Shown here: positions 36,901 through 42,900 of the stretch, piece by piece
Layout: each line of letters starts with the position of its first letter
Position numbering within the stretch: position 1 is the stretch's first letter
NCBI RefSeq assembly: GCF_058153355.1
Contig: NZ_CM177019.1
DNA: 64,000 nt
Reading direction: 5' to 3' (one strand)
Position numbers: made by a program

Positions 36901-39900
36901 CCAGGTTAAGAAGAACCACAGTGTAGAAGCCACCGCAAATTGCCCAAGATAGACGCCGATCAGTTTACGATGGAACACCAGTTTCCAGTCTTTGGCTGTT
37001 AGCGGCTGACGCGACTCTTTTTTCACTGGCGCATCGCCATCCACCAGACCGCCGCCGTCACGAATGTAATCCAGTTCAGCTTTGCTAATGCCTTTGGTCA
37101 GGCGCGGCGGCTGATAAACCTTAAACCAAATCAGCGACCAGATAATGCCGATACCGCCGGTGACAATGAACACCCAGTGCCAGCTCAACATTTCCTGAAT
37201 CCAGATCAGCAGCGGAGTCAGAAACGCCAGACCGACAAACTGACCAGACGTATAAAAACCCACGGCAGAAGCGCGTTCATGTTCCGGGAACCAGCTGGTC
37301 ACCATCCGGTTATTGGTCGGGAACGCGGGCGCTTCGAAAATACCGGTTATCGCACGCAGACCAATTAATGACATTAAGCCCGTGGCAAAGCCCTGGAATA
37401 ACGTCGCCACTGACCAGCCAAATATCGCAATAAAATAAGTCACGCGAGAACCTACGCGATCTAAAAACCAACCGCCGGGGATCTGACATAAGGTATAAAG
37501 CCAGGCGAAGGCCGAAAATACATAGCCCATTTGCGCTTTGGTAATGCCGAACTCTTCCTGAATATGGGCGGAAGCCACGGCCAGGTTAGCGCGGTCAACA
37601 TAACAAATGACCACCGTAATAAAGATCATCACCAGCGTCAGATAACGCCGACGCCCCGGTTTTGCTGCATTAACGGGAATATCCATAGCGAGCTTTCTCC
37701 AGATTTTGGGCATAGCGAAGCCGCTCACCATGCCCTGTAATGTACAGAGGGTTATATTTTTGTATTGCTGTTTTAGTGCCCGATGAGGGGCTTACGTGGC
37801 AGGAATTACCACTCTGCTACGCTGTTATCTTCATGACGCCAGAGCGGATTACGCCAGTCCGGGGCATTTTTACTGAACTCAATGACTTTGGCTTCGTCGA
37901 TTTCTACGCCTAAGCCCGGTTTCGTTAATGGTTTAAAGAAGCCGCCGACCATGCTGTAATGCCAGTCAGTTAAGCAACTGACTGGCTCTTTTTCGGGGCT
38001 GTGGGGTATTTCCAGGGCCTCTCCTTTACCACTCTCGGGAAGGCCCTTTCCCTTCTTGTCGGTAATTTCACAAGTTGTCCCATACTTGCAAGATCGCGCA
38101 TCAGCTCCGGTATACGTCCCGGTGAAGCGCCCTGCAATGTCATCAGCATTCTCATCACCATTCCGCATGATTCTGAGAAACTCAGTTGATTCGGCCAGTA
38201 ACCTTTCAGATGTTCCGCCATTTTAATCATCTGATATCTCACCAGATTATAAGCCAGTAAGACACCCCACAGCTCTTGCTCCACAAGCTCCGGCTTTTTA
38301 CTTCTCAGCGTCAGCCTGCTCAGTTGCATCGTCTGTTTTATCTCCCTGTATCCCAGTTCGATTTCCCAGCGATGACTGTACAGATCCGCCATTTCTCCTC
38401 CGGGGAAGCGCATGGCGTCCGTCATCGACGTCAGCAGATGGCAGACTTTTCCTTTGCGCGTCACGGTCAGCAGGCGGGCTGTCACTTCATTTCCCAGTCC
38501 CGGCCACTTTTTTCGTGCCTGCGGGCTGGTTTTCAGCTTCACCAGATGATCGCCTTTACCCAGTTTTCTGATCTCTTCATATTGCGCTCCCTTTCTGAGA
38601 GGTATCATCCAGTGGCGGTGTTCTCCCGCCAGGCTCCAGGCATTTAACAGTCCCAGTGAGTAATAACCTTTATCCATTAACGTCAGAGTGTTATCGCCGG
38701 TTTGTTCTATAAGTTGCTCAGCAAGCTCATTTTCGCTGTTCTTCATCGTGCCGAAGGCTGCAGCCGTCAGCAGATGGCTGGTCAGTTCCATCTGGCAGAC
38801 CATTTTGACCTGCGGGTAGAGCGCCGGGTTCCCGGCATGTGTCTGGCGGGGGAAGGCTGCATCGTTCTCTGGTGTATCCGGTGTGCGCCAGAACACACCA
38901 TCGATGGCCAGCAGGGTCAGGCCGCACCAGTGCGGATGCGGCGTGGCGTTATGCCAGAGCTGCGCTGTTTTCGTGAACACGCGGCGGACAGCCTCACTTC
39001 CCAGGCGCTGGCGGGCCTGAATAACGGCACTGGGGGCAACGAAGGGGCGATTGCCCGGCAGCATGATGTCCAGGCGATTCACAATCTGGTGAAGAGGTTC
39101 TTTACGCTCAAGCGCCATGCCAACAATACACCAGACCATCATTTCGAGGGGAAGACGGCGCTTGCGTAGCGTTACAGTACCTGATTCGGCAAGGCAACGA
39201 GAGATGAGTTCGGGGTCGAGGTAATCCCCCAGAGAAGTCAGTGGGTTACGCAGAGAATCGTAACGGGATACCAGATCAAGAGCCTGTCCAATGTGCATAA
39301 AAAAATCCGGAAACAAGTGAGCGTTTCCGGATTCTTACACAGCCACTGGATCGGTCAACTGATCCTTAACTGATCGGCATTAGGCCAAATCGGTCCCGTT
39401 TTTTTTCGCCTTTATTTCGGAGAAGTGTCCAGAGGGGCAAGGGGATTCGGGGGAGTATAATTTCGCCATTCAGAAAGAATGGAAAGAATAATGCAAAACA
39501 GAAAATGGATTTTGACCTCGCTGATAATGACTTTTTTCGGCATCCCCATACTGGCGCAATTACCAACTGGCGCACGGTTGGCGGTAACGATCAGGAGATC
39601 CAGACCTGGCAACGCCCGGAAGACTCTGGCAGCCAGACAGTGATGCAATCGCAGGTCATGAAAAATGTCCGCATGATCTCGCCGCAGGAAACCGAAGTGG
39701 CAAGCATGATGGAGGGAATGATTAAAGTTGTTGCCGAATACCGTAATACAAACAACTCAATAGGCTACACCTTCCGCTATTACGCAACACAAATGAACGC
39801 CGATAAAAATATAAAACTGCTAGCTATTAACGGTATTGCACCGACTGCGGAAAATATTCGTAACGGCAAATATCCGTATATCGTCGATGCCTTTATGGTA

Positions 39901-42900
39901 ACGCGGGAAAATACTACGTCAGAAACACAAAAACTGGTCGAATGGTTTTTAACGCCGCAGGGGCAGAGTCTGGTGGAAGATGTGGGCTATGTGCCGCTGT
40001 ATCCAACAATGAAATAACGCTCGAGAGAAAGGAATCAGCGCAATGAATAAATTCACCGGTGTTTTACTATTAGGTACGGCGTTACTGGCGGGATGTGTCG
40101 ACCGGGAAGGGTACTATAACAGCGTCAGGGAAGAAGAGAGTCATGGACTGACGTCTCTGCGGGGGCAACCTGAATTACGTTACAGCGATGATTGGTCAAG
40201 ATGGCCGAGAGTGTACGGCGCTACAGCCTTATACCCGCTGTATGCCTCCGCGTATTATGAATTAGTACCCGAGCCAAAAGATAAGGATCGAACCTCGCTG
40301 GCCTGGCAGGCGTATGGTTTGCAACAAACCCGAACAGCTGAAGCCTACGATAGTCTGATCAAGGGTACCGCGACGGTTATTTTTGTTGCACAACCGTCGG
40401 AAGGACAGAAAAAACGTGCAGAAGAAGCAGGCGTTAAACTGAAATATACCGCGTTTGCCCGCGAAGCCTTTGTCTTTATCGTTGATATCAAAAACCCGGT
40501 TAATTCACTTAGCGAACAGCAAGTCAAAGACATTTTTAGCGGTAAAGTGAGTCGCTGGAATAAAGTGGGCGGCGGTGACGAAAGTATAAAAGTCTGGCAG
40601 CGGCCAGAAGATTCTGGAAGCCAAACGGTTATGAAGGGACTGGTTATGCAAGATACTCCAATGCTGCCAGCCAAAAAATCCACTGTTATCGATCTTATGG
40701 GCGGTTTAATTACCGAAGTCGCCGACTACCAAAACACACCATCTTCCATTGGATACACCTTCCACTATTACGTCACACGTATGAATGACAATATGCTCAA
40801 AATGCGCAAACAGATCAAACTGCTGGCTATAAATGGCGTTGCACCTACAGAGGAAAATATCCGTAACGGCACTTATCCGTACATAATTGATGCTTATATG
40901 GTGACGCACGAAAACCCTACGCTGGAAACGCAGAAATTCGTCGACTGGTTTTTAAGCCCGCAGGGACAGCAATTGGTAGAGGATGTGGGGTATGTGCCGA
41001 TTCATGACGCATCATACGAATCATCAGTGCAATAATGATGAATAAAATCAGACTTTATATTCCTCCGTTAATTCTTGGTTTTGTTATTGTGCCGTTGTTG
41101 GTGTGGCCGACGGTGGTTGCGCTGGCTGCTTCTGTTATCACGCTGAGTTTTCTGGGAGAGATACTGTTCTCTATCCCGCTCATGATCAGGCATATTTCGC
41201 TTCTGCAATTACAACTATGGTTATCGGCTGAATATGCGCTTTTCTGCTGTGCAATGGTGGGCGTTGGTTGGCAATTTGCTCGTATAACTCAATCCGAATC
41301 GAAAAGCAGACTGCATTGTTGGCTGGTATTTGCACCAGTTTATTTCTGGTTGCTCCTGTGGAATATCATTTTCTATGTCGCGCCAGCGAATATTGCGTTG
41401 CTGGAGAATATGCGCAGTTTCTTTCTGACAGTTGTCTGGCTCCCACTGAATTTTTCGCCATTTTGGTCTCAACCGTGGATTGACTTTGTCGGTCCAATAA
41501 GCGCACAGCTTGGTTTTGCGTTGGGATATTATTGCCAGTGGCGTAGCAAAAATAGAAGCCAGATACGGAAGTGGAGTGAGTGGGGAACGTGCCTGAGTTT
41601 TGTTACGTTGGGTATGATGGCGTGGGCTTTGCGGTAATTCCCTGACTTAAAAAGTAGGTCAGATTGTTGACAAAGTGCGCTTTGTTCATGCCGGATGCGA
41701 CATGAACGTCTTATTGGCCTACAAGACCATGCAAATTCAATATATTGCATAAGCCACGTAGGCCTGATAAGCGTAGCGCATCAGGCAGTTTTTTGTTTAT
41801 CATCAGTCGCAGGTCAGATTGAAATCTGACCCGGCCACCTTACGTTAATTTACGACGCCAGCGACAACCTCTGCTGCGTATACTCCCCCAGCCACTGACT
41901 CACACGGGATTGTTGCTGCGCATTCAGCCACATGCCTTGTTTTGTGCGACGCCACAGGGCATCGTCGGCGCGGCGGACCCATTCGTGATCCACAAGGTAT
42001 TTCAGCTCCGCTTCGTAGAACTCATGACCGAAATCTTCCCCGAGATCGCCTATCGCCCCCGCATTGCCGAGCAGCAGCTCGCTGTTGCTGCCGTAAGTGC
42101 GCGCGTAGTGACGTGCCAGCGATTCAGTCAGGAACGGATAACGGCGGCGCAAGCGAGCGGCATAATCGTCGCGGTCGCCCTCGATGGCACCACCCGGCAG
42201 CACGCTCTCTTTCGTCCACGCCGGGCCAATGCCCTGATAATACGGCGTCAGTTTTTCCAGCGCGTGCTCCGCCAGTTTGCGGTAGGTGGTCAGCTTACCG
42301 CCGAATACCGATAACAGCGGAGCTTTGCCGTTTTCATCATGGATATCGAGCGTGTAATCACGGGTAATGGCCTGCGGCGAATCGGACTCATCATCACACA
42401 GTGGACGCACGCCGGAGTAGGTCCAGACGATATCATCCCGGCTTAGCGGCTTTTTAAAGTGCGCGTTATACACTTTCAGCAGGTAATTGATTTCACTCTC
42501 TTCAATCTTCACCGCTTTCGGATCGCCTTTATACTCCACATCGGTGGTGCCGATAATGGAAAACTCGTCCATCCACGGGATCACGAAGACAATACGTTTA
42601 TCTTCGTTTTGCAGAATGTAGGCTTGCTTCTGGGTATGCACACGCGGCACGACAATATGGCTGCCTTTGATCAGGCGAATGCCATAAGGTGAGGGTAGAT
42701 GCATACCGTCGTCGAAGAACTGCTTCACCCACGGGCCGGTGGCGTTCACGAGGCCGCGCGCTTGCCAGCTATATTTTTTGCCGGTATCGATATCTTCCGC
42801 TTCCACAATCCACAGGCCGTTTTCGCGGCGAGCAGAAGTGGCACGAGTACGGGTAAGCACTTCACCGCCTTTACGCACCACCATCTGGGCGTTGGCGAGT

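What the first reader, a model, noticed from the sequence alone, without database searches (positions are those of the whole stretch)
39491..41637. Duplicated PstS-like lipoprotein genes, one decayed, with a co-transcribed membrane protein next to glpD
Immediately after IS4 there is a pseudogene: a signal peptide frame that terminates early, then a frameshifted C-terminal PBP-like domain. It is followed by an intact 330 aa lipoprotein paralog and, overlapping its stop, a 200 aa polytopic membrane protein. K-12 retains only a short yzgL fragment near glpD as I recall. This strain therefore appears to preserve a more complete ancestral version of a small binding-protein/membrane-protein module of unknown substrate.
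Basis: partly seen in the sequence, partly recalled or inferred. Interest (0 to 1): 0.4.

Follow-up and report, generated by a model that had tools for sequence, protein, structure and literature searches.

The report
Decayed membrane-anchored PstS-like gene cluster
Between an IS4 element and glpD this Escherichia strain carries a known but uncharacterised accessory three-gene cluster: a membrane-anchored phosphate-binding-like gene destroyed by one 979-bp deletion, an intact lipoprotein copy of its binding domain, and an intact stand-alone copy of its membrane domain.

Summary
Window 39491-40017 is the wreck of a 502-aa gene. Window 40043-41035 is an intact 330-aa lipoprotein with a PstS-type fold. 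Window 41035-41637 is an intact 200-aa membrane protein whose start overlaps the stop of the gene before it (TAATG).

The interpretation needs three corrections.
- The dead gene was not a lipoprotein. It encoded a six-helix membrane domain fused to a PstS-like domain, and the supposed signal peptide is its first helix.
- It was killed by a single 979-bp deletion between two 10-bp direct repeats (TGGCGCAATT). An independent public assembly carries the same deletion.
- The 200-aa protein is a paralogue of the dead gene's membrane domain (hhalign 98.5%, E 2e-15).

The strain is more complete than K-12, whose yzgL is a chimera left by a 2.8-kb deletion. It is less complete than about 878 of 5426 E. 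coli genomes that keep all three genes.

These proteins belong to a widespread, unstudied family of membrane-anchored PstS-like proteins. No member examined sits next to ABC transporter genes. They score below the curated PstS cut-off and keep most phosphate-site residues. No Pho box was found.

Function is inferred: a dispensable periplasmic oxyanion receptor. Interest is modest.

The parts
37957..39382 (-). IS4 element (context). It is inserted in the left arm of the glgP terminator hairpin. Its other side abuts a truncated dgoD.
   Evidence: 1426 bp lie between the end of the dgoT-dgoD match and the start of the glgP-downstream match. The transposase ORF is 37970-39316. Terminal inverted repeats are present and there is no target-site duplication.
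39383..39490 (+). Remnant of the glgP terminator (right arm plus T-run, 39383-39408), followed by the untouched 5' region of gene 1. That region has a perfect TATAAT at about 39456-39461 and a poor -35.
   Evidence: Identical to the glgP-gene 1 spacer of E. coli R32_14_1F apart from one base. Read directly from the sequence. The promoter scan lists only a weaker site at 39463-39492. No Pho box with up to 3 mismatches.
39491..39561 (+). 5' remnant of gene 1: codons 1 to about 24, the first transmembrane helix of a 502-aa membrane-anchored PstS-like protein. The frame then reads out of register to a stop at 39641-39643.
   Evidence: The membrane-domain HMM hits this piece with E 1.3e-6.
39552..39561 (.). 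Deletion junction: the single surviving copy of the 10-bp direct repeat TGGCGCAATT. The 979 bp between the two copies (codons 23-348 of gene 1) are lost.
   Evidence: The repeat copies lie at L001 6170 and 7149, 979 bp apart, and only one copy is found in the window. Alignment. The same junction is present in the independent contig L103.
39562..40017 (+). 3' remnant of gene 1: codons 349-502 plus the stop, i.e. the C-terminal lobe of the PstS-like domain. It is out of frame with the 5' remnant.
   Evidence: PBP_like_2 1.8e-13 and TIGR02136 9.4e-24 on the 170-aa ORF 39505-40017. Only about 5 mismatches to L001 across this stretch.
40043..41035 (+). Gene 2: an intact 330-aa lipoprotein (MNKFTGVLLLGTALLAG|C) with a PstS-type binding domain. 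It is a paralogue of the gene 1 domain (58% identity).
   Evidence: The lipobox is conserved in the short paralogues. dN/dS is about 0.10. The exact sequence occurs on 25 public contigs.
41035..41637 (+). Gene 3: an intact 200-aa six-helix membrane protein. Its start overlaps the gene 2 stop (TAATG). It is a stand-alone paralogue of the membrane domain of gene 1.
   Evidence: hhalign probability 98.5%, E 2.3e-15 over 166 columns. Joint alignment shows shared P20, G78, P101, L106, W148, P154, F161, L163, G164. AlphaFold2 pLDDT 78.8, pTM 0.78. No Pfam, NCBIfam or PADLOC family. Only 41 hits among 1.84 billion representatives. dN/dS 0.18-0.36.
41850..43355 (-). glpD, the conserved right-hand boundary of the variable interval (context). 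It is preceded at 41640-41840 by REP-type repeats.
   Evidence: The many matching places per genome come from the repeat-rich spacer. Calling these repeats REP elements rests on my own knowledge.

Best explanation
SHOWN.

The stretch from IS4 to glpD is the variable glgP-glpD island of Escherichia, here in a partly decayed state.

- Gene 1 normally encodes a 502-aa inner-membrane protein: six predicted helices followed by a periplasmic PstS-fold domain. One 979-bp deletion between 10-bp direct repeats destroyed it, most simply by replication slippage or illegitimate recombination.
- Gene 2 is an intact, exported lipoprotein copy of the binding domain.
- Gene 3 is an intact stand-alone copy of the membrane domain.
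- Both intact genes are under purifying selection across strains.

These proteins belong to a large family found in several phyla. In that family a PstS-like domain carries its own N-terminal membrane domain. The gene sits alone in unrelated neighbourhoods, never beside ABC permease or ATPase genes in the loci examined.

INFERRED (about 35-40% likely).

- The binding domain captures phosphate or a similar tetrahedral oxyanion or phosphoryl group in the periplasm, at the membrane surface. Five of the seven E. coli PstS contacts mapped here are kept or conservatively replaced. The acidic or hydroxyl position that discriminates phosphate is Ala.
- The domain acts through, or is positioned by, its dedicated membrane domain rather than through PstCAB.
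- In this strain only the split pair (lipoprotein plus membrane protein) could still do this.
- The cluster is accessory and dispensable, which is why it decays repeatedly.
For: Anatomy and the lesion. Independent confirmation of the lesion.

Fold:
- Pfam PBP_like_2 at 1.5e-29 and 1.1e-29.
- AlphaFold2 model of the intact protein, pLDDT 85.8.
- Foldseek top hit is the phosphate-bound PstS 4gd5, E 2.4e-15, target TM-score 0.80.

Ligand site, from the profile alignment to 4gd5/4q8r plus family conservation. Mapping onto E. coli PstS numbering was done by hand from a remembered sequence.
- GATA: the Thr is kept (equivalent to PstS T10).
- S-R-T: the Thr sits at the S38 position.
- R-P-E-D-S-G-S-Q: R135, S139 and G140 are kept, and T141 becomes Ser.
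- These residues are invariant or nearly so across 72 sequences that share as little as 34% identity with the intact E. coli protein.
- The D56 position (Ser in 4gd5) is Ala.

Membrane-domain homology.

Periplasmic location: the short paralogues carry lipoprotein signal peptides.

No transporter partner:
- Escherichia, Salmonella, Klebsiella, Pseudocitrobacter, Rahnella and Saezia contexts.
- 79 loci from 314 relatives have no recurrent neighbour other than lineage-specific housekeeping genes.

Selection: dN/dS is 0.10-0.36, against 0.01-0.05 for glgP and glpD.

Dispensability:
- The K-12 2.8-kb deletion.
- This strain's deletion.
- A frameshifted gene 3 in XH992.
- IS insertions in several strains.
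- An internally deleted copy in Pseudocitrobacter.
Against: - No ligand or phenotype is known, and no paper in the searchable library studies these genes.
- The proteins fall well below the curated TIGR02136 PstS cut-off (119-139 bits against 206.6). The residue that discriminates phosphate is lost, so the ligand may not be phosphate.
- No Pho box is present.
- Only a handful of positions are conserved in the membrane domain: Pro, Gly, Trp, Phe, Leu and one partly conserved Gln, with no conserved acidic or basic residue. That fits a scaffold or anchor better than a transport pathway.
- Gene 3's usual upstream neighbour in E. coli is a 255-aa cytoplasmic protein, and that pair is conserved in a distant contig. 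The gene 2-gene 3 adjacency may therefore be a recent cassette swap rather than a functional pair.
- Six helices, a positively charged N-terminus and a periplasmic C-terminus do not all fit the positive-inside rule, so the topology is unsettled.
- Expression of genes 2 and 3 after the frameshift upstream was not tested.
Confidence: 0.6

Rival explanations
1. These are spare binding proteins for the canonical phosphate ABC transporter. The PstS-like domains deliver phosphate to PstCAB (or to another ABC importer encoded elsewhere). The lipid anchor or the six-helix domain only tethers them to the envelope.
For: - RefSeq names them PstS family substrate-binding proteins.
- The fold and most of the anion-site residues are PstS-like.
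- Multiple PstS paralogues feeding one transporter are known in other bacteria (own knowledge).
Against: - They fall below the curated PstS subfamily score.
- No Pho box is present.
- No permease or ATPase gene is adjacent in any of more than 90 loci across phyla.
- A membrane domain of about 200 aa with its own sequence motif, conserved from Enterobacterales to Campylobacterota, is more than a tether needs.
Confidence: 0.2
2. This is cargo of a recombination hotspot with a competition or protection role. The PstS-like lipoprotein, the membrane protein and the neighbouring 236-aa and 255-aa proteins would be swappable cassettes akin to orphan immunity genes, protecting the envelope against a secreted toxin or a phage rather than handling a nutrient.
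For: - The glgP-glpD interval is a described hotspot with several structural types (PMC13185298).
- Cassettes share only their last 32 bp.
- Salmonella paralogues of the 330-aa lipoprotein lie in an array of small ORFs together with Ntox34 and Peptidase_M91 toxin fragments and HEAT-repeat proteins.
- Klebsiella and Salmonella islands carry YbbD_head proteins; the Klebsiella island also has a faint DUF4279 hit.
- Copy number varies and decay is frequent.
Against: - No toxin gene lies next to the cluster in Escherichia.
- No PADLOC defence family matches.
- dN/dS is 0.1-0.3 with no sign of diversifying selection.
- The anion-site residues are invariant across phyla, which points to a conserved small-ligand function.
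- In most phyla the gene is a singleton among housekeeping genes.
Confidence: 0.1
3. The whole cluster is functionally dead in this strain. Genes 2 and 3 look intact only because the damage is recent. The frameshift in gene 1 would end translation about 400 nt before gene 2, and the resulting transcriptional polarity together with the IS4 insertion just upstream would silence them.
For: - Genes 2 and 3 are almost identical to those of the nearest intact relative (dN 0.0013 and 0), so no time has passed in which decay could show.
- Only 25 bp separate gene 1 from gene 2, and no promoter-like site was found before gene 2.
- The locus decays repeatedly in other lineages.
Against: - The 108 bp upstream of gene 1, with a perfect -10 hexamer, are untouched.
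- Gene 2 has its own ribosome-binding site (AAGGA, 9 nt before ATG).
- The yzgL stub is transcribed in K-12: it was measured as Cpx-repressed in PMC2731931.
Confidence: 0.1

Closest known systems
PstS-family phosphate-binding proteins of ABC importers (NCBIfam TIGR02136; solved examples 4gd5/4q8r of Clostridium perfringens, 1twy of Vibrio cholerae, and E. coli PstS 2abh)
   Same: - The same two-lobe type II binding-protein fold (Foldseek E 2.4e-15, target TM-score 0.80).
- The Thr of the N-terminal G-x-T motif and the R-x-x-x-S-G-S/T loop that hold phosphate are conserved.
   Different: - Scores are 119-139 bits against a curated cut-off of 206.6.
- The discriminating Asp/Ser position is Ala, and the G-S-G loop is R-T-P.
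- The protein carries its own multi-helix membrane domain or a lipid anchor.
- It is never encoded next to pstCAB-type genes.
- No Pho box is present.
yzgL pseudogene of E. coli K-12 (b3427)
   Same: Same locus and same ancestral genes. yzgL consists of the first 226 bp of gene 1 joined to the last 60 bp of gene 3.
   Different: K-12 lost about 2.84 kb in one deletion, with about 8 bp of overlap at the junction. This strain lost 979 bp inside gene 1 only and keeps genes 2 and 3 intact.
Binding domains fused to membrane domains of ABC importers (GlnPQ and OpuA types), and binding-protein-dependent secondary transporters (TRAP, TTT)
   Same: A periplasmic binding domain is covalently or genetically coupled to a dedicated membrane component. 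Fused and split versions coexist.
   Different: - The membrane domain here matches no ABC permease, DctQ/M or TctA/B family.
- It has only six helices and almost no conserved polar residues.
- No ATPase is present.
- Transport activity is unproven. This comparison rests on my own knowledge of those systems.
Binding proteins that signal to membrane receptors (for example P. aeruginosa PstS with the chemoreceptor CtpL; review PMC8050422)
   Same: A PBP_like_2 protein acts on a membrane protein that is not a transporter.
   Different: No signalling output domain (kinase, MCP, GGDEF) is present in or next to the genes studied here.

Membership tests
Pfam PBP_like_2 (PF12849) binding-protein domain | Profile match above the gathering score of 27 bits | tested here: met
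   Gene 2 scores 104 bits (1.5e-29), the intact gene 1 homologue 104.5 bits, and the window remnant 51.3 bits.
PstS family, NCBIfam TIGR02136 (ptsS_2 subfamily) | Whole-protein score at or above the curated cut-off of 206.6 bits | tested here: not met
   120.8 bits for gene 2, 118.8 for the intact 502-aa protein, and 136-139 for relatives in other phyla.
PstS phosphate-binding protein (functional definition) | The full set of phosphate-contacting residues (E. coli PstS T10, S38, D56, R135, S139, G140, T141) | tested here: inconclusive
   The T10, R135, S139 and G140 equivalents are kept. S38 becomes Thr and T141 becomes Ser. The D56 position (Ser in 4gd5) is Ala. All are invariant or nearly so in the family. 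The mapping to E. coli numbering was done by hand from a remembered sequence. Ligand binding cannot be tested here.
PstS phosphate-binding protein (functional definition) | Genetic linkage to ABC permease and ATPase genes (pstCAB) | tested here: not met
   None in the window next to the cluster. None as a recurrent neighbour within about 8 kb in 79 loci from many phyla or in the enterobacterial loci; ABC ATPase genes turn up only at scattered, inconsistent distances.
Pho regulon member | Pho box (CTGTCATAWAWCTGTCAY) upstream | tested here: not met
   No match in the window with up to 3 mismatches.
Bacterial lipoprotein | N-terminal signal peptide ending in a lipobox [LVI][ASTVI][GAS]C | tested here: met
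   Gene 2 begins MNKFTGVLLLGTALLAG|CVDREG. Most of the 22 short paralogues examined have an equivalent motif: 13 by a strict pattern, and several more with a TAGC or similar variant seen by eye. Lipid modification and sorting cannot be tested here. Because residue +2 is Val, the +2 rule would send it to the outer membrane (inference from established knowledge).
Membrane-domain family shared by gene 3 and the N-terminus of gene 1 (unnamed) | Profile-profile homology and the shared motif W..(I/L)P(V/I)(G/S)xQ(I/L)xFxLGYY | tested here: met
   hhalign probability 98.5%, E 2.3e-15 over 166 columns. Conserved columns in the joint alignment. An HMM of this domain hits fused proteins from Beta- and Gammaproteobacteria, Campylobacterota, Coriobacteriales and Sebaldella with E from 1e-9 to 1e-77.
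Major facilitator superfamily (half-transporter fold) | Significant structural match to an MFS six-helix bundle plus MFS sequence motifs | tested here: inconclusive
IS4 insertion sequence (context) | Element of about 1.4 kb with terminal inverted repeats and an IS4 transposase; target duplication if it is a simple insertion | tested here: met
   1426 bp, with a transposase ORF of 448 aa by the ORF listing. The matching feature in E. coli genomes is annotated 'IS4-like element IS4 family transposase'. Inverted repeats are present. The absence of a target duplication and the unrelated flanks point to recombination between two copies.

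The most novel reading that the evidence does not exclude
Membrane-anchored PstS-like proteins (six-helix or four-helix N-terminal domain plus a divergent PstS domain; fused in gene 1, possibly split in genes 2 and 3) are a distinct, widespread class of binding-protein module that does not depend on an ABC transporter. They could be a small secondary uptake system, or a receptor for phosphate or for a phosphorylated envelope compound. The six-helix domain would be a new partner module that can also pair with a cytoplasmic 255-aa protein.
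Probability: 0.25. Interest if true: 0.65.

Novelty: new variant of a known kind. Interest (0 to 1): 0.33.

Why it matters
For this window the result is mostly clarifying. The lesion is precisely defined, and the lineage is marked by an IS4-mediated rearrangement.

The wider point is that thousands of genomes annotate these proteins as 'PstS family phosphate ABC transporter substrate-binding protein', yet three things argue against that name:
- They fail the curated family threshold.
- They have no transporter genes beside them.
- They carry a conserved membrane domain that no database describes.

If that domain proves to be a working partner of the binding domain, it would add a new way for bacteria to couple a periplasmic binding protein to the membrane. 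It would also correct a widespread annotation. E. coli B and O157:H7 carry the intact cluster, so it is easy to test.

Tried and rejected
- Direct BLASTP of the 200-aa protein against the 502-aa protein was only suggestive (E 0.087). Single-sequence phmmer over 1.84 billion representatives found no fused relatives. Homology appeared only with profiles.
- Pfam, NCBIfam and PADLOC gave nothing for the membrane protein or for the 236-aa and 255-aa neighbours.
- The Rfam scan of 39200-42000 found nothing.
- The Pho box search found nothing.
- The promoter and terminator scan was no better than shuffled sequence.
- The afdb50 fold library was unavailable.
- Neighbour clustering in 79 loci was meant to find a conserved partner and found none. 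The only recurrent cluster was unrelated ABC ATPases at random distances.
- I considered that the signal peptide of gene 2 derives from the last helix of the membrane domain (AGY becoming AGC). BLASTP alignment starts only at residue 30 of gene 2, so I do not claim it. It is clear only for a Superficieibacter copy.
- I could not identify the organism beyond Escherichia/Shigella-like. The best identity to complete E. coli genomes is 97.3% in the first 12 kb of the window.

Full report
WHAT IS THERE

The window is Escherichia/Shigella-like DNA. The region of the finding lies between an IS4 element (37957-39382) and glpD (41850-43355, minus strand). Three co-oriented reading units follow IS4.

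- A broken gene at 39491-40017.
- An intact 330-aa ORF at 40043-41035.
- An intact 200-aa ORF at 41035-41637. Its ATG shares one base with the preceding TAA (TAATG).

- The 330-aa protein matches Pfam PBP_like_2 (1.5e-29) and NCBIfam TIGR02136 (6.4e-35).
- The 3' piece of the broken gene matches the C-terminal half of the same models.

THE PSEUDOGENE

E. coli R32_14_1F is 99.6% identical over this stretch. There the first gene is 1509 bp and encodes 502 aa (L001 6106-7614). Alignment shows a single difference of consequence.

- 979 bp between two copies of TGGCGCAATT (L001 6170 and 7149) are missing from the window.
- One copy of the repeat remains, at 39552-39561.
- The deletion removes codons 23-348 and shifts the frame by one base.

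None of the top-ranked matches among 5426 complete E. coli genomes spans the junction in one piece, as a genome with this deletion would. The chimeric 170-aa ORF that the deletion creates is, however, on record from two short-read contigs. One of them (SRR8656992, L103) shows the identical IS4 junction and deletion. The lesion is therefore real and marks a lineage.

WHAT THE DEAD GENE WAS

The intact protein is not a lipoprotein.

- Residues 1 to about 205 are hydrophobic. AlphaFold2 models them as six long helices (5-42, 49-77, 83-110, 120-140, 145-165, 173-202) on a 72-sequence alignment, with pLDDT 85.8.
- Residues from about 245 to 500 are the PstS fold. The best Foldseek hit is the phosphate-bound PstS 4gd5, E 2.4e-15, target TM-score 0.80.
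- The 330-aa lipoprotein is 58% identical to this domain.

THE MEMBRANE PROTEIN

The 200-aa protein has no Pfam, NCBIfam or PADLOC family. An exhaustive phmmer search of 1.84 billion representatives found only 41 hits, nearly all close Escherichia-type sequences or fragments of them.

A profile of the N-terminal domains of 77 fused proteins aligns to a profile of the 200-aa family with 98.5% probability, E 2.3e-15, over 166 columns. A joint alignment shows shared P20, G78, P101, L106, W148, P154, F161, L163 and G164, and the motif P-(V/I)-(G/S)-x-Q-(I/L)-x-F-x-L-G-Y-Y.

Gene 3 is therefore a stand-alone copy of the membrane domain of gene 1. It ends just after the last helix, where the fused proteins continue into the binding domain. 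A Pseudocitrobacter locus holds an intermediate form: a lipoprotein copy followed, with overlapping stop and start, by a 351-aa protein made of the membrane domain plus an internally deleted binding domain.

ARE THE GENES REAL?

Pairwise Nei-Gojobori estimates between strains:

| Gene | dN/dS |
|---|---|
| gene 1 | 0.12-0.25 |
| gene 2 | about 0.10 |
| gene 3 (dS up to 1.0) | 0.18-0.36 |
| glpD | 0.02-0.05 |
| glgP | 0.00-0.02 |

All three genes are under purifying selection, weaker than for the flanking housekeeping genes. There is no sign of diversifying selection.

DISTRIBUTION AND DECAY

Among 5426 complete E. coli genomes:

| Feature, at 80% or more coverage | Genomes |
|---|---|
| gene 1 | 3348 |
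| gene 2 | 884 |
| gene 3 | 2053 (3516 with any match) |
| whole three-gene module | 878 |
| 255-aa cytoplasmic protein | 2952 |

- K-12-type yzgL is a deletion chimera. The first 226 bp of gene 1 are joined to the last 60 bp of gene 3, with about 8 bp of overlap at the junction and about 2.84 kb lost.
- Other lineages have a frameshifted gene 3 or IS insertions.
- The interval has been described as 'hotspot A' with seven structural types (PMC13185298).
- Arrangements differ from strain to strain. Many strains have a 236-aa and/or a 255-aa cytoplasmic protein in place of gene 2.
- The 255-aa/membrane-protein pair is conserved in a distant metagenomic contig at 50% and 35% identity.
- Similarity between the two arrangements begins only 32 bp upstream of gene 3. 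Both upstream genes end in D-A-S-x-E-S.
- The lipoprotein/membrane-protein adjacency in this window is therefore the minority arrangement, probably made by cassette replacement.

THE WIDER FAMILY

Relatives of about 500 aa with the same architecture occur between glgP and glpD in Salmonella and Klebsiella. They occur as singletons elsewhere in Rahnella (between purB and phoPQ) and in Saezia (between two U32 peptidase genes).

A scan of one genome per species found 314 relatives. The 79 loci retrieved come from Gamma- and Betaproteobacteria, Campylobacterota, Bacillota, Spirochaetes, Planctomycetes, Coriobacteriales and others.

- Nearly all full-length members have a hydrophobic N-terminal region.
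- The six-helix type is recognised by the membrane-domain HMM in proteobacteria, Campylobacterota, Coriobacteriales and Sebaldella.
- Bacillota and Treponema have a shorter four-helix type that the HMM does not recognise.
- Clustering of all neighbouring ORFs found no conserved partner and no ABC permease or ATPase set. The neighbours are RuvB, LpoB-like proteins, YbaK, formate-tetrahydrofolate ligase and the like.
- All members score 119-139 bits on TIGR02136, against a cut-off of 206.6.

LIGAND SITE

The profile alignment to phosphate-bound 4gd5/4q8r, combined with family conservation, gives the following.

- The N-terminal G-A-T-A keeps the Thr (E. coli PstS T10).
- S-R-T-P replaces G-S-S-A, with a Thr at the S38 position.
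- The position of E. coli D56 (Ser in 4gd5) is Ala.
- R-P-E-D-S-G-S-Q keeps R135, S139 and G140, and has Ser at T141.

These residues are invariant or nearly so. The numbering relative to E. coli PstS is my own mapping. The pocket therefore looks like a working oxyanion site of altered specificity.

LOCATION AND REGULATION

- The short paralogues carry lipoprotein signal peptides, so the domain works in the periplasm.
- Residue +2 of gene 2 is Val, which by the +2 rule suggests outer-membrane sorting (inference).
- No Pho box and no Rfam element are present.
- A perfect TATAAT lies about 30 bp upstream of gene 1, with a poor -35 (read).
- The yzgL stub was reported as two-fold repressed on Cpx induction in K-12 (PMC2731931).

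MECHANISM

Shown:
- the anatomy of the cluster and the lesion;
- the paralogy of the binding domains and of the membrane domains;
- purifying selection on all three genes;
- the lack of transporter partners.

Inferred:
- The domain binds phosphate or a related oxyanion or phosphoryl group at the periplasmic face. It acts with its own membrane domain rather than with PstCAB.
- Only the split pair could still do so in this strain.
- The cluster is accessory.

I put the functional part at about 35-40%. Three rivals remain:
- spare binding proteins for PstCAB;
- hotspot cargo with a protective role. Salmonella paralogues sit among Ntox34 and M91 toxin fragments, but there is no defence-family match, no adjacent toxin in Escherichia, and a conserved ligand site;
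- a cluster already silenced in this strain.

VERDICT

The locus is a degraded copy of a known, annotated but unstudied accessory cluster. What is modestly new is the homology between the 'hypothetical' membrane protein and the N-terminal domain of the fused protein, and the recognition that this is a broad PstS-like family independent of ABC transporters and mislabelled by annotation.

Noticed in passing
window 36394-39412: IS4 (37957-39382) joins two regions that are about 340 kb apart and oppositely oriented in E. coli R32_14_1F. On the left are dgoT and the last ~50 codons of dgoD. On the right is the right arm of the glgP terminator. There is no target-site duplication. This fits an inversion (or another rearrangement) between two IS4 copies. 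It also means that dgoD, and so the D-galactonate operon, is disrupted.
   Followed up: partly
L003 5105-5329 (K-12-type E. coli) against L001 6106-9234: The K-12 pseudogene yzgL is a chimera left by a deletion of about 2.84 kb. The first 226 bp of the 502-aa gene are joined to the last 60 bp of the 200-aa membrane gene, with about 8 bp of overlap at the junction.
   Followed up: yes
L005 5569-6944; L007 5627-7715; L004 121-1499: In most E. coli genomes (2952 of 5426) the membrane gene follows a 255-aa acidic, cytoplasmic-looking protein with no known family, often preceded by a 236-aa protein. The 255-aa/membrane pair is conserved in a distant metagenomic contig. The 255-aa gene and the 330-aa lipoprotein gene share their last ~11 codons (D-A-S-x-E-S...), which marks a cassette-swap junction 32 bp before the membrane gene.
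   Followed up: partly
L009/L010 4234-9909; L102: Salmonella paralogues of the 330-aa lipoprotein lie in a variable array of small ORFs near sseK/yegS. The array also contains fragments of Ntox34 and Peptidase_M91 toxin domains and a HEAT-repeat protein. Another strain has the array without the binding-protein genes. It looks like an orphan toxin/immunity-type island.
   Followed up: partly
L017 8001-10054 (Pseudocitrobacter): A lipoprotein copy is followed, with overlapping stop and start, by a 351-aa protein made of the six-helix domain, a diverged start of the binding domain (the GATA motif is lost), an internal gap equivalent to about 140 residues, and the last 36 residues. This is a further independent decay state of a fused gene.
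   Followed up: yes
L056, L063, L066, L069, L076, L083, L086 and similar (Bacillota, Treponema): Relatives of the binding domain in Gram-positive bacteria and spirochaetes are 380-430 aa. They have a shorter N-terminal region of about 130 aa, with three or four hydrophobic segments, which the six-helix HMM does not recognise. It may be a second type of anchor domain for the same binding domain.
   Followed up: no
L008 8564-9109; L011 8838-9958: In Salmonella and Klebsiella the fused gene in the glgP-glpD interval is followed by a YbbD_head protein, and in Klebsiella also by a protein with a faint DUF4279 hit. From memory, the YbbD_head family is named after a K-12 gene next to an rhs orphan region. 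Their role here is unknown.
   Followed up: no
window 41640-41840: The spacer between gene 3 and glpD holds REP-type palindromic repeats. These made the first similarity search return a median of 18 places per E. coli genome.
   Followed up: no
window 1-12000: The uhp/PTS region at the start of the window is at best 97.3% identical to any of 5426 complete E. coli genomes, whereas the cluster studied here is 99.6% identical to one goat isolate. The strain seems to belong to a poorly represented Escherichia/Shigella lineage, with mosaic similarity.
   Followed up: no
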